DNA of 64,000 nt, taken from a virus. The stretch lies in IMG/VR virus record IMGVR_UViG_3300046517_001303; one strand, written 5' to 3'. Of the stretch, positions 24,857-33,649 are shown piece after piece; position 1 is the first letter of the stretch, and each line of letters starts with the position of its first letter. The translations under genes and the position numbers were made by a program. The notes under the pieces are model-generated. The model ran no database searches and was not told where the DNA came from. It saw only the letters and a program-made list of their open reading frames with translations.

Positions 24857-24927
24857 CGGTGGCTGGTGAAAAGGTATCACGTCCGTCCGATGAACGGACA
24901 TTACAGGTTCGATTCCTGTGCCACCGA
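24857..24927 (+). tRNA. tRNA-like gene (cloverleaf with anticodon GAU = Ile, atypical anticodon loop CCGATGA lacking U33)
   Basis: acceptor CGGTGGC/GCCACCG, D-arm GTGA-AAAGGTA-TCAC, anticodon stem TCCGT/ACGGA, T-arm ACAGG-TTCGATT-CCTGT. Confidence 0.45.
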
Positions 24928-24929
24928 AT

Positions 24930-25043
24930 GGGGCCTTGTGCTGTGTGCAACTGGTAGACGTGACCTGGCCCCGCAAGGGTGATCGGGTGCCCCGTAAAAC
25001 GGGACTAATGGCTCCAGGTTCAAATCCTGGTCACAAGGCCCCA
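24930..25043 (+). ncRNA. tRNA-like / Y-RNA-like structured element (11-bp terminal helix plus canonical T-arm; no full cloverleaf)
   Basis: GGGGCCTTGTG...CACAAGGCCCC terminal pairing, T-arm CCAGG-TTCAAAT-CCTGG, internal GNRA-type hairpins (CCCGCAAGGG, CCCGTAAAACGGG). Confidence 0.3.
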
Positions 25044-25065
25044 ATATTCAGGACCGGAGCTGACG

Positions 25066-25746
25066 ATGGGCATGTTCGACACGATCATCTGCCGCTGGCC
25101 GCTGCCGGGGACGCCGCCGGCCTTCATCAAGCCGGACCACTCGTTCCAAACGAAGAGTCTGAACTGTCTGCTGGACCAGTACGAGATCACCAGTGACGGC
25201 CGGCTGACGTATAAGGGCGAGCCGGTCGAGTTCCACGGCGAGATTCAGTTCTACACGTCGAACATCTCCGGCGGCAGCTCGTTTGGCGTCTACACCCGCG
25301 ACGGTGAAGATGCGGAAAGTGTCGAATACCTGGCCCGGTTCAGCTGTGGCCAACTGATGGAGATTACGCTCGTCGAGCATACCCGCGAGCCGGCGCTGCC
25401 GATCTCGAAGATGCGTGCGGCCCAATACCAGAATCCGTCGCCGAAAGAGATTGCCGAAGACCAGCGGCGTCGGAACGAGAAACTCAAGTCCCGCGTCATG
25501 TGGGTGGCCTGGGGCGGCAAGCCGGCGTCCGAAGGCTACGCTGGGGTCGTGGTGGCCGAGAACGGCAAAGAGTGGGTGGTGCAGCAGTCTCCGCCGGACG
25601 GCAAGTTCGAGATCATCGACCGTCGCCTGCGCGACTCGATCCTGTTCGACTCGCTGGCCGCGGCCGAGTGCCGCGACGCCGAACGCAAGGCCGAGCGGGA
25701 CAAAGAGAAGGCCGAGTACGAGGCGATGCTGAAGGAGCGAACATGA
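25066..25746 (+). CDS. hypothetical protein (226 aa)
   Basis: ORF; Lys/Glu-rich C-terminal tail. Confidence 0.5.
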   Translation: MGMFDTIICRWPLPGTPPAFIKPDHSFQTKSLNCLLDQYEITSDGRLTYKGEPVEFHGEIQFYTSNISGGSSFGVYTRDGEDAESVEYLARFSCGQLMEITLVEHTREPALPISKMRAAQYQNPSPKEIAEDQRRRNEKLKSRVMWVAWGGKPASEGYAGVVVAENGKEWVVQQSPPDGKFEIIDRRLRDSILFDSLAAAECRDAERKAERDKEKAEYEAMLKERT

Positions 25747-28066: not shown

Positions 28067-30208
28067 ATGTCTGAAGAAATCACCGGCTGCGTCGTCAAAC
28101 TTTTCTTCCAAGGCCCGGCGTTCTGCGCCGGCCGACTGCTGCCGTCTGGCGGCTCGACCGAAATCGCCTTCTCCGGCAAAATCTACGTCTGCGAAGATCA
28201 GATCGTCACGTTCCGAGGCGAGTGGGTCATCCACACTAAGTACGGCCGTCAGTTTGAGGTGAAGTCGATTGTCAGCCATCGGGAGATCGACGCCAATGGG
28301 CTGGTGTCGTGGCTGGAGCGTCGCGGGCGCGGCCACGGGATCGGGTTCGTGAAGGCCAAGAAGATCGTCGCCGAGTTCTATCCGACGTTCAAAGACACGC
28401 TTTTGAATCAGCCGGAGCTGATCGCCAATTTTGCTGGCGTCCCGGTCAAGGGCGTCCAGGAGATCGCGTCGTACTATGGCGACCACGAAGACGAAATCCG
28501 GTCCTACGCCGATCTGGCGGCGCTGGGCCTGACCGACTTCCTCTGCAACACGCTCTGGGCGAAGTACAAGGGTGCGTCGCTGGCCTTGATTCGCGACAAC
28601 CCGTACCGGTTGGCGGACGAGGTCAACGGGATCGGGTTCGCCAAGGCCGACGAGATTGCGAAGAACGTTGGGATCGCCGGCACTCACCCGGCCCGGATTC
28701 GGGCGGCGGTCCTGCACGCAATCCAGATGAACCAGGACAACGGCTCGACCTGCATCGACCTGGACAAACTGGTCGAGATGGCCGCGAAACTTCTGGGGTC
28801 GGACGAGAACGTGGCGACCGGGGTGGCGACGTATGTGGCGGACGGCGACATCGCCCAGATCGGCGACAGGTACGCGATTCCGTCCACCGCCATGTGCGAG
28901 CGTAACATCGCCGACTTCCTGGCCCGCATGAACACACCGCGGACGTGGGTAAAGGATATCGAGGCGGGGATCGCAAAACACGGCGACTTCCTGGACGACG
29001 ATCAGAAGGCCGCAGTGCGGCTGGCCCTTACCCGCGGCGTTTGCATCATCACTGGCCCGGCCGGGTCCGGCAAGACGACCGTGGTCAACACCATCGTCAA
29101 GATTCTGAACGATGTCTACATCCACGCCTCCCTCTGTGCGCCAACGGGGAAGGCCGCGCGACGGATGGAAGAGATCATTGGCCAGAATGCGTTCACGATC
29201 CACCGCCTGCTCGCTTACCAGCCGCCGAACGTCTGGAACCATAACCGCGACAACCCGCTCCCCGACGACGTCATTATTTGCGACGAAGTCAGTATGAACG
29301 ATAGCTTCCTGTCGTGGAACCTGATGCAGTCGGTGCGGCCGAGCGCGGCCATGATCCTGGTGGGCGATCACAACCAGCTGCCGCCGGTCGGACCGGGCGC
29401 GTTCTTGCGTGACGCCATTCAGCATAAGCTGGTGCCGGTGGCCGATCTGCACCAGGTCCACCGGAACGCCGGCGCTCTGCGACAGAATAGTGCGGCCGTG
29501 CTGGACGGCAAACTGGCCCCGACCGCACCGCGGCTGCCGAACGGCAAGCCGGAGTGGGTGGTCCTGGACAACCATGTGAGCGAGTCCACGCTGTTGCCCA
29601 TGCTCGACAACCTGTTCCTGGACGCGATCCCGGCCCTGGGTTACGACCCGGTCCTGGACGTGCAGTTCATGTCGCCCCGGCGCAAGGGCGTGTCGCTCTG
29701 CTCGGAGATGTTGAGCGAGCGGTTCCAGGTTCTCCACCAGAAGCGGCTGGGCCGCAGCATCGCGCCGACGCCGCCGAAGCGGCGGGCGATCCTGTACGAA
29801 GGCGACAAGGTGATCCAGACCAAGAACAACTACAACCTGGACGTGATGAACGGGACGCTGGGGATCGTGGTGGAGGCGGGCGACAAGTTGAAGATCAAGT
29901 TCGACACGATGGACGAGCCGCTGACGATCCCGAACGAATGCAAGGGCGACATCGACCTGGCGTACTGGCTCACCGTCCACAAGATGCAAGGCGCTCAGTG
30001 CCCCGTGGCGGTCGTACTCTGCTGGGGCGCTCACCTGGGCGGCTACGACGCCCCTATGCTCCACCGTAATCTTGTCTATACTGCACTGACCAGGGCCAGA
30101 GAGTGTACGTTCCTCGTCGGTGACAGCAAAGGTGTAAAGGTCGCGCTGTCGCGCAAGGTCGAGAACCAGCGGCTCACGCTGCTGCCGGTGTTTGCGAGGA
30201 AAAAATGA
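28067..30208 (+). CDS. RecD2/TraA-like SF1 DNA helicase with N-terminal helix-hairpin-helix modules
   Basis: Walker A ITGPAGSGKTT, motif Ia CAPTGKAARRM, Walker B VIICDEVSMN, HhH repeats GIGFVKAKKIV / GIGFAKADEI, C-terminal SH3-like VIQTKNNYNLDVMNG. Confidence 0.8.
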   Translation: MSEEITGCVVKLFFQGPAFCAGRLLPSGGSTEIAFSGKIYVCEDQIVTFRGEWVIHTKYGRQFEVKSIVSHREIDANGLVSWLERRGRGHGIGFVKAKKIVAEFYPTFKDTLLNQPELIANFAGVPVKGVQEIASYYGDHEDEIRSYADLAALGLTDFLCNTLWAKYKGASLALIRDNPYRLADEVNGIGFAKADEIAKNVGIAGTHPARIRAAVLHAIQMNQDNGSTCIDLDKLVEMAAKLLGSDENVATGVATYVADGDIAQIGDRYAIPSTAMCERNIADFLARMNTPRTWVKDIEAGIAKHGDFLDDDQKAAVRLALTRGVCIITGPAGSGKTTVVNTIVKILNDVYIHASLCAPTGKAARRMEEIIGQNAFTIHRLLAYQPPNVWNHNRDNPLPDDVIICDEVSMNDSFLSWNLMQSVRPSAAMILVGDHNQLPPVGPGAFLRDAIQHKLVPVADLHQVHRNAGALRQNSAAVLDGKLAPTAPRLPNGKPEWVVLDNHVSESTLLPMLDNLFLDAIPALGYDPVLDVQFMSPRRKGVSLCSEMLSERFQVLHQKRLGRSIAPTPPKRRAILYEGDKVIQTKNNYNLDVMNGTLGIVVEAGDKLKIKFDTMDEPLTIPNECKGDIDLAYWLTVHKMQGAQCPVAVVLCWGAHLGGYDAPMLHRNLVYTALTRARECTFLVGDSKGVKVALSRKVENQRLTLLPVFARKK

Positions 30209-30767: not shown

Positions 30768-30973
30768 AGAAAGTCCTATGCCAGAAGTGCGGCCAATACG
30801 CCGTAGAGATCGACGTTGAAGAGCCGGAGGGGCCGTACATGTTCATCCAGTTCGGCCGTGACCTTACCGACTACGAGTTCGGTCAGGCGAAAGACATCGC
30901 GAGCCAGTTTTCGGACTTGGTCCAAGGGACGACGATCATCTGTAGTCGGCAAAATTTCGCGCGAACCTCTTGA
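30764..30973 (+). CDS. zinc-ribbon protein (69 aa)
   Basis: MKKVLCQKCGQYA; ATGA overlap. Confidence 0.4.
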   Translation: MKKVLCQKCGQYAVEIDVEEPEGPYMFIQFGRDLTDYEFGQAKDIASQFSDLVQGTTIICSRQNFARTS

Positions 30974-31000
30974 CTTTCGCCGCTGTCCTTGTAGAGTAGA
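30971..31000 (+). promoter_or_regulatory. sigma70-like promoter TTGACT-N16-TAGAGT driving the ncRNA cluster
   Basis: ttgactttcgccgctgtccttgtagagt immediately after the last CDS. Confidence 0.4.
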
Positions 31001-31905
31001 CTGAGGTTCGGGTCGCAGCTAATCGTTACCGGTGTTGTGTTCGGTTAGCGATTCTCATCCGAACCTTTTAGGAAGTCGTGGTCCGCCGGTTCGATTCCGG
31101 AACTTCCTCTCCGTATGCAACACTTTGCCCGGTGTATCTTCGCAGTGAAGATAAGGGCCGCAGCAGACGGTTATCATCCGATGAGTCGGGCGAATGCCCA
31201 AGGAGCCACCACGGACCAGCCATTCTATTGAAACAACTGATATACGCGGGCCGAATTCGTAGGGTTATCACCCCTAATGATGTCACCCTACAAAACAAAC
31301 TTGTCCGCGTTACTTGAAACACTGAAATTCCGCGAGCCGAAGTCAGACGATTATCTTTGCAAAAAGACTGCGGGTTCGATTCCCGTCCCCTGAACGGGGC
31401 TGGCATTGGCGAGCCAAAACCGTCCGACAAATTTGTTCGCGGAGTAATCTTTGCGGGCCGACAGGTATTCGGTTATCACTTGGTTGTGACGCCGAAAGGC
31501 AATCTCCGAATCCAAAACCTTGTCCGCAATTTTGAGCTTTCTCGGGCCGATGCGATTTGGTTATCCTAAGCCGCAGGTCGCTGGGCGCGATTCCCAGCCC
31601 TTCCCGTTTATGTGGGGAGGTAGCTCAGAAGTAGAGCAGCGGCCTCGCCGAAAGGCGATCTCCGAATCTAACCCTTGTCCGAGAATTTTCGCTGTTGGGC
31701 TAGTGCCCGTCATGGCCTCATAAGCCAAGATTTGGTTAGTGCGATCCTAACAACAGCGACTACGGGCCGAACGTGGTTGTGTTCTCACTTGATATGAGCC
31801 ATCCTGGGTTCGACTCCCAGCATGATCGAAAGATCATGGAGTGTTGTGGAAACACGGTAAACCGCAACTGCATAACTTGCCCGTATTTATCCTGTAACTC
31901 CTTTA
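31001..31905 (+). ncRNA. cluster of tRNA-like / Y-RNA-like non-coding RNA modules (about 4 units) upstream of rsr
   Basis: no ORF >60 aa on the coding strand; four T-arm mimics (ccGGTTCGATTCCgg ~31088, gcGGGTTCGATTCCCgt ~31370, CTGGGCGCGATTCCCAG ~31580, CTGGGTTCGACTCCCAG ~31803); canonical D-arm TAGCTCAGAAGTAGAGCA ~31621; GNRA hairpins GCCGAAAGGC x2, CATGATCGAAAGATCATG; repeated TTGTCCG(A) blocks; GGTCCG at ~31080. Confidence 0.45.
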
Positions 31906-31924
31906 CAACACCAAGGAGCCTCTG

Positions 31925-33541
31925 ATGACGCTTGCAAAGCATCTCTCCGTCCGCGCCACCCCACAGACTGAGCCGATTCCCGGCAAGCCGATGGTCCCAA
32001 ACTCGGCCGGCGGCTACTCGTTCCAGGTCACGGATTGGGATCGGTTAGACCGATTCCTGATCCTGGGCAGCGCCGGCGGCACCTACTACGTCAGCGAGCG
32101 CAAGCTGACCATCGACAACGCCAAGTGCGTACTCGACTGCGCCAAGGAAGACGCTGCGCGCACGGTCAACCAGATCGTGGCGATCTCGGAAGCCGGTCGT
32201 GCGCCCAAGAACGACCCGGCGATCTTCGCCCTGGCCCTGCTCGCGTCGCAGGGTTCGGCCGAGACCAAGGCGTTGGCCCTGGAGGCGATGCCGAAGGTCT
32301 GCCGCATCGGCACGCACCTGTTCCAGTTCGCTGCCGCCTGCAACGAGCTGCGCGGCTGGGGCCGCGGCCTGCGCCGAGCCATCGGTGCGTGGTACACGGA
32401 CAAGGACGCCAAGGACGTCGCATACCAATGTGCGAAGTACCAGAGCCGGGATGGCTGGAGCCACCGCGACTTGCTGCGGCTGTGCCATGTGAAGCCGGTC
32501 CAGTTTTCGCCGCCGAAGCCGGACGAGCCGGACCGGGCGAAGGTTCTGAATTGGGTCGTCAAGGGATGGCCTTCGGTCGGCGAAACTCCGCACGACCGAG
32601 ACGCCCTGAAGACCATCTGGGCCTTCGAGAAGGCGAAGAAGGCGACCGACGCCAAGGAAGTGGCGAAGTTGATCGCCGACTACAACCTGCCGCGCGAGTG
32701 CGTGCCGACGCAGTTCTTGAACGAGCTGCCGGTGTGGGACGCCCTGTTGCAGAAGATGCCGATGACGGCGATGATCCGCAACCTGGCGACCATGACGCGG
32801 CTGGGCCTGATCGCCCCGCTGTCGGAGGCGATGAAGAAGGTCGTGGCCGAGCTGGGCAGCGTGGAGCGGCTGAAGAAGGCCCGCGTCCACCCGTTGTCCC
32901 TGCTGGTCGCACTGAAGACCTACGCCCAGGGCCGCGGCGACAAGAGCGACAAGACGTGGGTGCCGGTCCAGAAGGTCGTGGACGCTCTGGACGACGCTTT
33001 CTACTTGGCGTTCGACGCCGTGGAGCCGACGAACAAGCGGTGGATGTTGGGCCTGGACGTGTCCGGCTCGATGGGCGCGGCGATCTGCAATTCGCCCGTC
33101 ACCTGCTGCGAGGCGGCGACGGCGATCTCGCTGGTCACGACTCGGATTGAACCGTGGACCTTCACGGGCCGATTCAACACCGGCTTCCAGACCTGCCCGT
33201 TCACGGCGAAGACACGACTGGACGAGGCGCTGCGGTACACGCGGGACATCAACGGCGGCGGCACCGACTGCTCAATGCCGATGCTGTACGCGACGCAGAA
33301 CAAGATTCCGGTCGATGTATTCGTCGTTATAACGGACTCGGAAACGTATGCGGGACGCGCCCAGCCGCCGCAGGTACTCAACGAGTACCGGCAGCGGATG
33401 GGAATCCCGGCGAAGATGATCGTGGTCGGTATGACCTCAACAGGATTTACCGTCGCTGATGTGAACGATCCAGGCTCGCTCGATATCGTCGGCATGGATA
33501 CCGGCGTGCCGACCGTGATGAACCAGTTCGTTGCAGGCTGA
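31925..33541 (+). CDS. rsr: Ro60/Rsr ortholog (TROVE domain + vWA domain)
   Basis: N-terminal SAGGYSFQVTDWDRLDRFLILGSAGGTYYVSERK (TROVE signature), C-terminal vWA MIDAS LGLDVSGSMG; 538 aa. Confidence 0.8.
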   Translation: MTLAKHLSVRATPQTEPIPGKPMVPNSAGGYSFQVTDWDRLDRFLILGSAGGTYYVSERKLTIDNAKCVLDCAKEDAARTVNQIVAISEAGRAPKNDPAIFALALLASQGSAETKALALEAMPKVCRIGTHLFQFAAACNELRGWGRGLRRAIGAWYTDKDAKDVAYQCAKYQSRDGWSHRDLLRLCHVKPVQFSPPKPDEPDRAKVLNWVVKGWPSVGETPHDRDALKTIWAFEKAKKATDAKEVAKLIADYNLPRECVPTQFLNELPVWDALLQKMPMTAMIRNLATMTRLGLIAPLSEAMKKVVAELGSVERLKKARVHPLSLLVALKTYAQGRGDKSDKTWVPVQKVVDALDDAFYLAFDAVEPTNKRWMLGLDVSGSMGAAICNSPVTCCEAATAISLVTTRIEPWTFTGRFNTGFQTCPFTAKTRLDEALRYTRDINGGGTDCSMPMLYATQNKIPVDVFVVITDSETYAGRAQPPQVLNEYRQRMGIPAKMIVVGMTSTGFTVADVNDPGSLDIVGMDTGVPTVMNQFVAG

Positions 33542-33649
33542 CTAGACACCCCCAATTTCTTGGGGGTGTTTTCATATCTTGACTTTCGACAATAATCTCA
33601 TAAGATAGCTTCGCGAAGAGCGATCCTTTTCACTTCAGGAGCATAGGGT

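What the first reader, a model, noticed from the sequence alone, without database searches (positions are those of the whole stretch)
30971..33541. Ro60/Rsr gene preceded by a 0.9-kb array of tRNA-like (Y-RNA-like) non-coding modules, inside a phage
31925-33541 encodes a TROVE + vWA protein (SAGGYSFQVTDWDRLDRFLILG...; MIDAS DVSGSM), the architecture of Ro60/Rsr. The 950 nt upstream have no credible ORF and start at a sigma70-like promoter (TTGACT-N16-TAGAGT). They contain four T-arm mimics (GGTTCGATTCC-type), one canonical D-arm (TAGCTCAGAAGTAGAGCA), several GNRA hairpins (GCCGAAAGGC x2, GATCGAAAGATC) and four copies of a TTGTCCG(A)-AATTT block, but no complete cloverleaf. From established knowledge, bacterial Y RNAs that bind Rsr carry tRNA-mimicking domains and are usually encoded next to rsr. 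A GGTCCG at ~31080 is reminiscent of the Ro-binding helix (GGUCCGA in metazoan Y RNAs). A phage-borne rsr with a tandem array of about four Y-RNA-like units, and with no rtcB or rtcR nearby, would be unusual.
Basis: partly seen in the sequence, partly recalled or inferred. Interest (0 to 1): 0.85.

Follow-up and report, generated by a model that had tools for sequence, protein, structure and literature searches.

The report
Phage Ro60 gene with Y-RNA array
A probable phage carries one operon with a Ro60 (Rsr) RNA-binding protein gene preceded by five clear and two weaker Y-RNA genes plus one tRNA-like element; this is a large, well-preserved example of a known kind of locus, not a new kind.

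Summary
ORF 31925-33541 is a Ro60/Rsr orthologue (TROVE plus Ro60-type vWA). The 0.95 kb upstream is non-coding and structured.

The modules are better defined by Ro-binding helices than by T-arms. Five tandem units (31244-31886) are each closed by a 5' GGGCC-G-A / 3' UUGUCC stem with a bulged C, followed by GGUUAUC at a fixed distance. Two weaker or decayed units lie 5' of them. A degenerate tRNA-Met-like cloverleaf sits between units 6 and 7.

A promoter-like site and a terminator hairpin bracket the array and rsr as one operon.

The same unit design occurs next to Ro60 in about 160 related viral and bacterial loci. It always lies on the Ro60 strand, shows compensatory base changes, and forms arrays of up to 13 units.

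Unit 6 has the T / AS / D-arm layout of YrlA. The short units resemble metazoan Y RNAs and nematode sbRNAs.

Phage Ro60 with adjacent Y RNAs, and polycistronic Y-RNA/tRNA precursors, are already published, so the "unusual" claim is overstated.

What is new: an array larger than any described in the papers I could read, mixed module types, and a subfamily that Rfam's YrlA model does not capture.

The parts
30970..30997 (+). Sigma-70-like promoter of the operon (TTGACT-16-TAGAGT)
   Evidence: Consensus scan. The 11-mer CTTGACTTTCG around the -35 box occurs exactly twice on the + strand, here and at 33578 just after the rsr terminator. No promoter-like or terminator-like site was found inside the array. 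Function is inferred, not shown.
31006..31064 (+). Unit 1a: weak Y-like hairpin (GUUCGGGU-C-G...CGUUACC...UCAUCCGAAC)
   Evidence: Model R1 scores 17.3 bits, E about 1e-3, in a region-only search with filters off. The MFE fold closes this hairpin. Weak; may be a decayed unit.
31070..31108 (+). T-arm minihelix: 7-bp acceptor-like stem (AGGAAGU/ACUUCCU) carrying CCGG-UUCGAUU-CCGG.
   Evidence: Sequence, fold, exact GGTTCGATTCC match.
31153..31228 (+). Unit 2 remnant: 5' half of a unit (GGGCCGCAG...GGUUAUC, 31155-31175) with no matching 3' strand
   Evidence: Motif scan. The fold is no better than shuffles, z = +0.5. Not found by R1. Probably decayed.
31244..31310 (+). Unit 3: minimal Y RNA (67 nt). 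Lower stem with bulged C, GCCGAA, upper stem, GGGUUAUC loop.
   Evidence: MFE z = -3.4. Scanner hit. R1 57.7 bits, but this unit is in the seed. Sub-threshold hit to the nematode sbRNA family RF01656, 26.7 bits.
31327..31445 (+). Unit 4: Y RNA with a T-arm module (GCGGGUUCGAUUCCCGU) and extra hairpins; 8+ bp closing stem
   Evidence: MFE z = -3.2, 0 of 200 shuffles as good. Scanner hit. R1 32.4 bits, E 2e-7, not in the seed.
31451..31529 (+). Unit 5: short Y RNA with a GCCGAAAGGC (GNRA) hairpin
   Evidence: MFE z = -2.0. Scanner hit. R1 42.5 bits, but this unit is in the seed.
31539..31685 (+). Unit 6: YrlA-class Y RNA. Order: lower stem, GGUUAUC, T arm, 8-bp 'AS' arm, D arm (UAGCUCAGAAGUAGAGCA), GNRA hairpin, 3' strand.
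   Evidence: MFE z = -3.0. Partial YrlA RF02553 match over T/AS/D, 23.3 bits. Aligns with 33 T+D units from other loci, where RNAalifold recovers the lower stem and the T, AS and D arms with covariation.
31690..31760 (+). Degenerate tRNA-Met(CAU)-like cloverleaf: 7-bp acceptor stem, 4-bp/4-nt 'D' hairpin, CUCAUAA anticodon-like loop, T loop UGCGAUC. Packed flush between units 6 and 7.
   Evidence: ARAGORN calls it only at a relaxed threshold, not at default. Rfam tRNA did not match it at E up to 10. Fold z = -2.7. The same design occurs in L166 1982-2051, with different acceptor-stem pairs.
31760..31886 (+). Unit 7: Y RNA with a T-arm module (CUGGGUUCGACUCCCAG) and a GAUCGAAAGAUC hairpin
   Evidence: MFE z = -3.3, 0 of 200 shuffles as good. 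R1 27.6-28.1 bits, E 1.6e-4 over the whole window, not in the seed. Its 3' end is conserved in L165, whose Ro60 is 72% identical.
31913..33541 (+). Shine-Dalgarno AAGGAG (31913-31918) and the rsr/Ro60 gene (ATG 31925, stop 33539-33541; 538 aa)
   Evidence: Pfam TROVE and vWA_Ro60. PDB Ro60/Rsr hits. 7999 homologues at E<=1e-50 among the 8000 candidates scored.
33546..33573 (+). Terminator-like hairpin (ACACCCCCAA-UUUC-UUGGGGGUGU followed by UUUCAU) closing the operon
   Evidence: Fold -20.3 kcal/mol, z = -3.8. It is followed at 33579-33606 by the next promoter-like site.

Best explanation
This is a phage-borne Ro60 ribonucleoprotein operon.

Transcription (inferred). One promoter (30970) drives a transcript of about 2.6 kb that ends at the hairpin at 33546.

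Processing (inferred, by analogy with M. smegmatis and D. radiodurans). The 5' 0.9 kb is cut into separate small RNAs. These are five well-formed Y RNAs (units 3-7, 67-147 nt), one or two weaker ones, and a tRNA-like element. The tRNA-like element and the tRNA-like modules probably give RNase P and 3'-end enzymes their cutting sites.

Binding (inferred from motif conservation). Each Y RNA pairs its 5' and 3' ends into the conserved stem 5' yGGGC-[C]-GA / 3' UUGUCCr. This stem is the binding site for the Ro60 ring encoded immediately downstream.

Module diversity (shown from sequence). The apical modules differ between units: none (U3), a GNRA hairpin (U5), a T-arm (U4, U7), or T + AS + D arms as in YrlA (U6).

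Function (speculative). Each module would gate Ro60's RNA-binding surface or tether it to a different host partner, such as PNPase in RYPER-type complexes or tRNA-recognising enzymes. One phage protein would thereby be redirected to several structured-RNA substrates during infection.
For: Protein identity.

Units:
- Five consecutive helix+UUAUC hits in the window, and none elsewhere in 128 kb.
- MFE folds close those stems, with z from -2.0 to -3.4.
- Model R1 finds the non-seed units U4 and U7 at E 2e-7 and 2e-6.

Comparative evidence:
- Scanner hits pile up within 1.25 kb upstream of Ro60, or just downstream of it, on the Ro60 strand. Counts are 73/50/33/15/12 per 250-nt bin, against about 0 on the other strand.
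- R1 gives 158 + 111 hits in 1.12 Mb of related loci, all on the Ro60 strand.
- Stems are 87.5-89.9% paired, against 66-71% in shuffles and 51% or less in slid controls. The upper stem was never imposed by the scanner, and it carries many two-sided changes.
- Features not imposed by the scanner are conserved: G at -1 (94%), AAG after the bulge (matching Chen's GNCGAA motif), and GGUUAUC fixed at +14..+20.
- U6 aligns with 33 T+D units whose T and AS arms covary.

Operon bounds.

Precedent:
- M. smegmatis YrlA and YrlB are processed from one precursor upstream of rsr (PMC4201824).
- D. radiodurans Yrn2-tRNAAsp-Yrn1 is a polycistronic precursor (PMC4201824).
- M. smegmatis YrlA is cut by RNase P (PMC4201824).
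- phiLo Ro60 binds two upstream Y-like RNAs and host PNPase (PMC12135203).
Against: - There are no expression, processing or binding data for this locus. Everything after 'the sequence encodes these structures' is inference.
- No Rfam family reaches its gathering score in the array.
- Units 1a and 2 are weak or decayed.
- R1 misses U6.
- The lower-stem statistics are partly circular, because the scanner and the model seed required that helix.
- The phage assignment of the window rests on few hallmark hits: Erf, a RecD2-like helicase, a weak tape-measure match and several PHROGs of unknown function. Most ORFs match nothing.
- Host partners such as PNPase were not examined.
Confidence: 0.82

Rival explanations
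1. The 0.9 kb is a decayed phage tRNA-gene cluster (tRNA pseudogenes) that happens to sit upstream of rsr. The T-arm and D-arm motifs would be relics without Ro-related function.
For: - T-arm and D-arm motifs and one tRNA-Met-like cloverleaf are present.
- Related Ro60 loci are often embedded in real tRNA clusters: 258 ARAGORN tRNAs lie within 1.5 kb on the same strand in 65 of 167 loci.
Against: - Unit boundaries are Ro-type stems with a bulged C and GGUUAUC, not acceptor stems. Units 3 and 5 carry no tRNA motif at all.
- In U6 and 37 of 45 other units that carry both motifs, the T arm comes before the D arm. This is the permuted YrlA order, not the tRNA order.
- The design is conserved, with covariation, across phyla and always on the Ro60 strand.
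Confidence: 0.04
2. The region is a long structured 5' leader of the rsr mRNA that acts in cis (attenuator, riboswitch or autoregulatory Ro60-binding sites) rather than a set of separate small RNAs.
For: - There is a single promoter-like site and no internal terminator.
- The array runs to within 40 nt of the start codon.
- Ro60 binding to the last units could plausibly affect translation.
Against: - In other loci the same units lie downstream of Ro60. L113 has 8 and L047/L050 have 6.
- In L001 units are separated from Ro60 by an HNH endonuclease gene.
- Characterised homologues are released as stable small RNAs (PMC4201824).
- Units are packed 5-16 nt apart, like tRNA arrays.
Confidence: 0.06
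3. The Y-like RNAs act mainly without Ro60, as decoys or sponges for host tRNA-recognising enzymes or tRNA-targeting defence nucleases. Ro60 would only stabilise them.
For: - Several units carry tRNA-like modules.
- Related loci co-locate with phage tRNA arrays.
Against: - The units lack anticodon arms, so they are poor decoys for anticodon nucleases.
- Minimal units (U3, U5) have no tRNA mimicry, yet they keep the Ro-binding stem.
- The best-conserved positions are those of the Ro-binding helix.
Confidence: 0.08

Closest known systems
Bacterial and phage Y RNAs next to rsr: YrlA/YrlB of Salmonella and M. smegmatis, and mycobacteriophage YrlA (Chen et al. 2014, PMC4201824; Rfam RF02553)
   Same: - Encoded within 1 kb of Ro60 on the same strand.
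- GNCGAA motif in the 5' strand of a terminal stem.
- One unit (U6) has the V/T/AS/D tRNA-like module in the YrlA order.
- Several RNAs come from one precursor.
- R1 also hits the upstream regions of Mycobacterium phage LinStu and Gordonia phage BearBQ.
   Different: - 5-7 units, against the 'at least two' Y RNAs found in each of the three characterised bacterial species.
- Rfam YrlA is not reached (23.3 bits against 69), although LinStu's own unit also fails (36.1 bits).
- Both strands of the Ro-binding helix are recognisable here. Chen et al. state that only the 5' strand is recognisable in Salmonella and M. smegmatis.
- No rtcBA/rtcR was found among the window ORFs tested.
D. radiodurans rsr locus: Yrn2-tRNAAsp-Yrn1 polycistronic precursor, plus small RNAs a, b and d upstream of rsr (PMC4201824, section 9)
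   Same: - Several small RNAs with T-arm mimics upstream of rsr.
- A tRNA sits between two Y RNAs in one transcript.
- The lower stem matches the metazoan Ro-binding site.
   Different: - Here the interspersed element is a degenerate tRNA-like, not a bona fide tRNA.
- More units are present.
- The context is phage.
- The Rfam Deinococcus Y RNA model matches only a T-arm (16 bits).
Thermus phage phiLo Ro60 with Yrl1/Yrl2 (PMC12135203)
   Same: Phage-encoded Ro60 with Y-like RNAs immediately upstream, identified by a CGAA motif and a stem-bulge-stem shape. It was shown to bind Ro60 and host PNPase.
   Different: - Two units against 5-7.
- phiLo Ro60 was not among the PDB sequence hits of this protein at E<=1e-3, so the proteins are distant.
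Metazoan Y RNAs and nematode stem-bulge RNAs (Rfam RF01656 ceN72-3/ceN74-2; Kowalski and Krude 2015, PMC4726728)
   Same: - Terminal stem with a bulged C.
- CGRAG after the bulge.
- GGGUUAUC in the same register relative to the bulge as in the RF01656 consensus (alignment).
- U3 scores 26.7 bits against RF01656. Two related units exceed its gathering score: L113 at 42.9 bits and L106 at 39.6 bits.
- The protein scores higher against Xenopus and human Ro60 than against Deinococcus Rsr.
   Different: - Bacterial or phage origin.
- No Pol III features.
- One stem pair differs (GGGC/GUCC here, GGUC/GACC in animals).
- Many units carry tRNA-like modules that animal Y RNAs lack.
- Homology as opposed to convergence was not tested.

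Membership tests
Ro60 / Rsr protein | TROVE (HEAT-repeat ring) domain | tested here: met
   Pfam PF05731, 1.3e-50, residues 25-329. Aligns end to end with Xenopus Ro60 1YVP.
Ro60 / Rsr protein | C-terminal Ro60-type vWA domain with a MIDAS motif (DxSxS) | tested here: met
   Pfam PF25045, 4.2e-57, residues 372-536. DVSGSM is invariant in the 36-sequence alignment A1: D378 V379 S380 S382 M383.
Ro60 / Rsr protein | Conserved block KYxxRxGWSHRDLLRL. By my recollection of Stein et al. 2005 it holds the Y-RNA-binding residues K170 and R174 of Xenopus Ro60. | tested here: met
   The query has KYQSRDGWSHRDLLRL aligned to Xenopus KYKQRNGWSHKDLLRL. K171, Y172, R175 and W178 are invariant in A1. The residue roles come from memory and were not tested.
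Ro60 / Rsr protein | Ring-shaped fold; binds Y RNA on the outer surface and misfolded RNA in the cavity | not tested
   No structure prediction or binding test was run. The sequence match to solved rings is strong.
Y RNA (general) | Encoded near Ro60, on the same strand | tested here: met
   The units end 39 nt before the rsr start. In related loci all 269 R1 hits lie on the Ro60 strand.
Y RNA (general) | The 5' and 3' ends pair into a long stem carrying the conserved Ro-binding site with a bulged C | tested here: met
   Units 3-7 have 5' GGGC[C]GA / 3' UUGUCC plus 4-8 further pairs. Covariation is shown. Units 1a and 2 are weak or fail.
Y RNA (general) | Bound by Ro60, and dependent on it for stable accumulation | not testable with these tools
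   Needs RIP, EMSA or Northern blots in an rsr mutant.
YrlA (Rfam RF02553) | GNCGAA(N0-1)G motif in the 5' strand | tested here: met
   U4 AGCCGAAG fits the motif in full. U3 GGCCGAAU and U7 GGCCGAAC carry GNCGAA. U5 (GGCCGAC) and U6 (GGCCGAU) deviate at one base. The family consensus is A 48%, A 67%, G 67% after the CG.
YrlA (Rfam RF02553) | tRNA-like module with T arm, AS stem-loop and D arm in that (permuted) order | tested here: met
   Met by U6 only. The cmscan alignment covers model positions 23-85 with T, AS and D. RNAalifold on 34 T+D units recovers all three arms. U4 and U7 have a T arm only.
YrlA (Rfam RF02553) | Score at or above the Rfam gathering threshold (69 bits) | tested here: not met
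   23.3 bits. None of 19 related loci reaches it. The Ro locus of mycobacteriophage LinStu scores 36.1 bits, so the model is insensitive outside its seed clades.
tRNA (for 31690-31760) | Canonical cloverleaf with a D loop (G18 G19) and a T loop (T54 Psi55 C56), detectable by tRNA finders | tested here: not met
   ARAGORN at default finds nothing there and calls it only with -ps. Rfam tRNA did not match it at E up to 10. The 'D arm' is a 4-bp/4-nt hairpin and the T loop is UGCGAUC. It is tRNA-like, not a tRNA.
Metazoan Y RNA / nematode sbRNA (RF01656) | Score at or above the gathering threshold (38 bits) | tested here: not met
   U3 scores 26.7 bits. Two related bacterial units do exceed it. 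This is a resemblance in design; membership or homology is not claimed.

The most novel reading that the evidence does not exclude
Two linked readings remain open.

(a) Large Y-RNA arrays form an unrecognised class of 'adaptor libraries'. The arrays hold 5-13 units, often sit in or beside phage tRNA clusters, and mix minimal, T-arm and YrlA-type modules. One phage Ro60 would be loaded with different Y RNAs to retarget host RNA-decay and tRNA-processing enzymes, or to titrate them.

(b) The short units share more than the Ro-binding stem with animal Y RNAs and sbRNAs. They also share the GGUUAUC element in the same register, and the protein is closer to vertebrate Ro60 than to Deinococcus Rsr. 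The whole RNP (protein plus RNA, UUAUC included) would then have one origin and would have moved horizontally, perhaps on phages. UUAUC would be an ancient Ro-RNP element rather than a eukaryote-specific DNA-replication motif.
Probability: 0.2. Interest if true: 0.7.

Novelty: new member of a known kind. Interest (0 to 1): 0.45.

Why it matters
1. It supplies a clean, bounded phage operon (promoter, 5-7 Y RNAs, one tRNA-like element, Ro60, terminator). With it one can test experimentally why a single Ro60 needs many Y RNAs with different modules.

2. A simple stem-plus-GGUUAUC signature, and a small covariance model, find Y RNAs next to Ro60 in many phyla and phages where Rfam's YrlA model finds nothing. 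Annotation of these loci can therefore be improved. At least one deposited phage ORF (LinStu gp230) overlaps such RNAs.

3. The shared register of GGUUAUC with nematode and vertebrate Y RNAs bears on whether bacterial and animal Y RNAs are homologous. A 2015 review states that they are not (PMC4726728).

Tried and rejected
- Rfam at gathering thresholds found nothing in the array. The E-value mode gave only sub-threshold partial hits.
- ARAGORN at default found no tRNA in the array.
- blastn of the array against 50,697 phage records gave no match.
- A single-protein scan of viral contigs gave only one locus. The alignment-based scans were needed.
- RNAalifold on the MAFFT alignment of the minimal units recovered only the lower stem. 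The upper stem had to be specified by hand and then checked with a model-based alignment.
- Model R1 misses long units such as U6.
- My regex scanner misses variants with a bulged U, as in L166. The unit counts per locus are therefore lower bounds.
- The GGTCCG at 31080 was rejected as a Ro-binding site.
- Unit 2 was rejected as an intact unit.
- Two reviews on bacterial Y RNAs (PMC10870794, PMC6047535) are not held in the library, and the supplement tables of Chen 2014 are not held either. I could not check the largest number of Y RNAs per locus already reported.
- No literature hit links UUAUC to bacterial Y RNAs. This is absence in the held library only.


Full report
**1. The observation.**

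ORF 31925-33541 (+) encodes a 538-aa protein.
- It matches Pfam TROVE (1.3e-50) and the Ro60-type vWA domain (4.2e-57).
- It aligns end to end with solved Ro60 rings: Xenopus 1YVP 427 bits, human 9NEN 424 bits, D. radiodurans Rsr 2NVO 368 bits.
- The MIDAS DVSGSM motif and the KYxxRxGWSHRDLLRL block are invariant or nearly so among 36 homologues.

The 0.95 kb upstream is non-coding.
- Its ORFs are 120 aa or shorter, with GC3 of 0.50-0.59. Flanking genes have 0.70-0.87.
- GC drops from about 0.65 to about 0.52.

ARAGORN at default and Rfam at gathering thresholds find nothing in the region.

**2. What the modules are.**

The repeated TTGTCCG blocks are the 3' strands of terminal stems, and GGGCCGA blocks are their 5' strands. 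Written out, each unit is 5' ...yG-GGC-[C]-GA ... GGUUAUC ... UUGUCC-r... 3'. This is the Ro-binding helix with a bulged C.

A mechanical scanner looked for three things:
- at least 4 closing pairs;
- the core [AG]G[CT]-C-G paired to TT+complement;
- a UUAUC-type pentamer within 35 nt.

It finds exactly five hits on both strands of the 64-kb window. All are consecutive at 31244-31885 (+). The helix alone gives 12 scattered background hits, none with UUAUC.

| Element | Coordinates | Features |
|---|---|---|
| U3 | 31244-31310 | minimal |
| U4 | 31327-31445 | T-arm |
| U5 | 31451-31529 | GNRA hairpin |
| U6 | 31539-31685 | T + AS + D arms + GNRA hairpin |
| tRNA-Met(CAU)-like cloverleaf | 31690-31760 | truncated D arm, non-canonical T loop |
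| U7 | 31760-31886 | T-arm + GNRA hairpin |

- Unconstrained MFE folds close the predicted stems in U3-U7, with z-scores from -2.0 to -3.4.
- Gaps between U3 and U6 are 5-16 nt.
- ARAGORN calls the cloverleaf only at a relaxed threshold.

The 5' quarter of the array is less clear.
- 31006-31064 is a weak Y-like hairpin (17.3 bits with my model).
- 31070-31108 is a T-arm minihelix.
- 31153-31228 keeps only the 5' half of a unit, and its fold is no better than shuffles.

**3. Operon bounds.**

- A sigma-70-like site (TTGACT-16-TAGAGT) lies at 30970-30997.
- Its surrounding 11-mer CTTGACTTTCG recurs exactly once more on this strand. That copy is at 33578, right after a strong hairpin (33546-33569, -20.3 kcal/mol, z = -3.8) plus a U-run that follows the rsr stop codon.
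- No promoter-like or terminator-like site lies inside the array.
- AAGGAG precedes the ATG by 6 nt.

The simplest reading is one transcript: array plus rsr. This is inferred, not shown.

**4. Related loci.**

Sources:
- Alignment-based scans fetched 80 viral (IMG/VR) loci and 80 bacterial-genome loci encoding 45-56% identical Ro60. One further viral locus (L001) came from a single-protein scan.
- Closer relatives at 61-72% identity came from exact-protein look-ups.

Distribution of scanner hits:
- Hits pile up on the Ro60 strand within 1.25 kb upstream: 73, 50, 33, 15 and 12 per 250-nt bin. They also pile up just past the stop codon. The opposite strand has about none.
- Units per locus range from 0 to 13 in viral contigs (L045 has 13; L001 and L008 have 7) and from 0 to 9 in genomes (L113).
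- Arrays mix minimal, T-only and T+D units spaced 5-20 nt apart. The window's array of 5 strict units is at the high end but not unique.

Features the scanner did not impose are nevertheless conserved over 237 units:
- G at -1 (94%);
- A-A-G after the bulge, which fits the GNCGAA(N)G motif of Chen et al.;
- GGUUAUC at a fixed +14..+20;
- CC opposite the GG.

A covariance model (R1) built from 89 minimal units gave these results:
- It finds the non-seed units U4 (32.4 bits, E 2e-7) and U7 (28.1 bits, E 2e-6).
- It gives 158 and 111 hits in the two locus sets, every one on the Ro60 strand.
- On the model-based alignment of genome hits, 89.9% of cells pair, against 71% in shuffles and 48% or less when the partner is slid.
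- The upper stem was never required by the scanner. It is 73-89% paired, with many two-sided changes (MAFFT-based equivalent).

The lower-stem numbers are partly circular, because that helix was a search criterion.

U6 aligns with 33 T+D units. RNAalifold recovers the lower stem, the T arm, a strongly covarying AS arm (15-21 two-sided changes per pair) and an invariant D arm. The order is T, then AS, then D, which is the layout published for YrlA.

**5. Comparison with what is known.**

Chen et al. 2014 (PMC4201824) reported the following:
- YrlA-like RNAs lie next to Ro60 in 254 bacteria and 22 phages.
- M. smegmatis YrlA and YrlB are processed from one precursor upstream of rsr.
- RNase P cleaves M. 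smegmatis YrlA.
- D. radiodurans makes a polycistronic Yrn2-tRNAAsp-Yrn1 precursor.

Thermus phage phiLo has two Y-like RNAs upstream of its Ro60. They bind it and host PNPase (PMC12135203).

Among GenBank phages, 355 records encode a Ro60 relative. My model also hits upstream of Ro in Mycobacterium phage LinStu (two units, plus a sub-threshold YrlA match) and in Gordonia phage BearBQ.

So phage Ro60 with tandem Y RNAs and without rtcB is an established arrangement. The window is a new, unusually rich member of it.

What I did not find described in the papers I could read:
- arrays this large;
- both strands of the metazoan-type helix being recognisable (Chen et al. say only the 5' strand is recognisable in Salmonella and M. 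smegmatis);
- the GGUUAUC element.

Rfam's YrlA model misses all 19 related loci tested. It also scores the LinStu unit below threshold.

**6. Resemblance to animal Y RNAs.**

- U3's best Rfam hit is the nematode stem-bulge RNA family RF01656, at 26.7 bits.
- The printed alignment shows the same register of bulged C, GRAG and GGGUUAUC.
- Two related units pass that family's gathering score (L113 42.9 bits, L106 39.6 bits).
- UUAUC is reported as conserved in sbRNAs and vertebrate Y RNAs and as needed for their replication activity. Bacterial Y RNAs are described there as not homologous to vertebrate ones (PMC4726728).

Whether the resemblance reflects common descent or common constraints from Ro60 was not tested. 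I report it as a lead.

**7. Context.**

The window is almost entirely + strand ORFs without database matches. The matches found are:
- an Erf-like annealing protein;
- a RecD2-like helicase (31 bp separates its stop from... see below);
- a weak tape-measure hit;
- an SPFH protein;
- several PHROGs of unknown function;
- two tRNAs.

The RecD2-like helicase gene lies just upstream of the small ORFs that precede the array (28067-30208).

No RtcB was seen among the ORFs tested. The nearest Ro60 relatives sit on IMG/VR contigs or next to a phage portal gene. A phage or prophage origin is likely but not proven.

**8. Verdict.**

- The feature is real.
- The identity (Ro60 plus a Y-RNA gene array) is well supported. 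The mechanism is inferred by analogy.
- Novelty: a new member of a known kind.
- It has two open leads: array size with module diversity, and the metazoan-like core with GGUUAUC.

Noticed in passing
window 24929-25043 (+): Immediately 3' of tRNA-Ile (24857-24927) lies a 115-nt structured element. It has a 12-bp terminal stem (GGGGCCUUGUGC/…CACAAGGCCCC), internal GCAA and UAAAA hairpins, and a T-arm (CCAGGUUCAAAUCCUGG). The MFE of 24928-25066 is -58 kcal/mol. ARAGORN does not call it in intron, tmRNA or relaxed mode, and no Rfam family matches at E<=1. Identity unknown.
   Followed up: partly
window 31690-31760; L166 1982-2051: The tRNA-Met(CAU)-like element with a 4-bp/4-nt 'D' hairpin and a CUCAUAA loop has a counterpart of the same odd design in the array of L166 (Ro60 61% identical). 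The acceptor-stem pairs differ between the two. This suggests a conserved tRNA-like component of these arrays rather than a random pseudogene.
   Followed up: partly
L001 2997-3476: The Y-RNA array of this viral contig is split by an ORF encoding an HNH homing endonuclease with an HTH domain (Pfam HNH_3, 1.7e-08). Three units lie before it and four after it.
   Followed up: yes
L162 (Mycobacterium phage LinStu) 2776-2949: The annotated CDS gp230 overlaps two RNA matches upstream of the Ro gene: an R1 hit at 2854-2923 and a sub-threshold YrlA match at 2714-2791. The ORF may be a mis-annotation.
   Followed up: no
167 Ro60 loci (L001-L167): Ro60/Y-RNA loci are often embedded in tRNA gene clusters. 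ARAGORN finds 258 tRNAs within 1.5 kb on the Ro60 strand in 65 of 167 loci, and L001 alone has about 20 tRNAs around the locus. Some of these calls may be the tRNA-like modules of Y RNAs.
   Followed up: partly
L166 1850-3000: In this relative the units use a bulged U instead of C (for example GGAC[U]GAAG ... CUUGUCC). My scanner therefore missed them, and the family is broader than the regex.
   Followed up: no
L113 4704-4769; L106 2869-2937: Two Y-like units next to bacterial Ro60 genes exceed the Rfam gathering score of the nematode sRNA family RF01656 (42.9 and 39.6 bits against 38). In automated annotation they would be labelled as nematode sRNAs.
   Followed up: no
window 30969-30979 and 33578-33588: An identical 11-mer CTTGACTTTCG spans the -35 boxes of two promoter-like sites that bracket the operon. 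These are its only exact + strand copies in the window, so this may be a phage promoter class.
   Followed up: partly
window 31584-31594 and 31613-31630 (unit 6): U6 departs from the family at the T-loop, with CGCGAUU where more than 90% of T+D units have UUCGAnU. It also departs in the D-loop, with AGAAGU instead of AGU-GGU. Both changes fall at the positions of the tRNA G18/G19-U55/C56 contacts. Whether they are linked was not examined.
   Followed up: no
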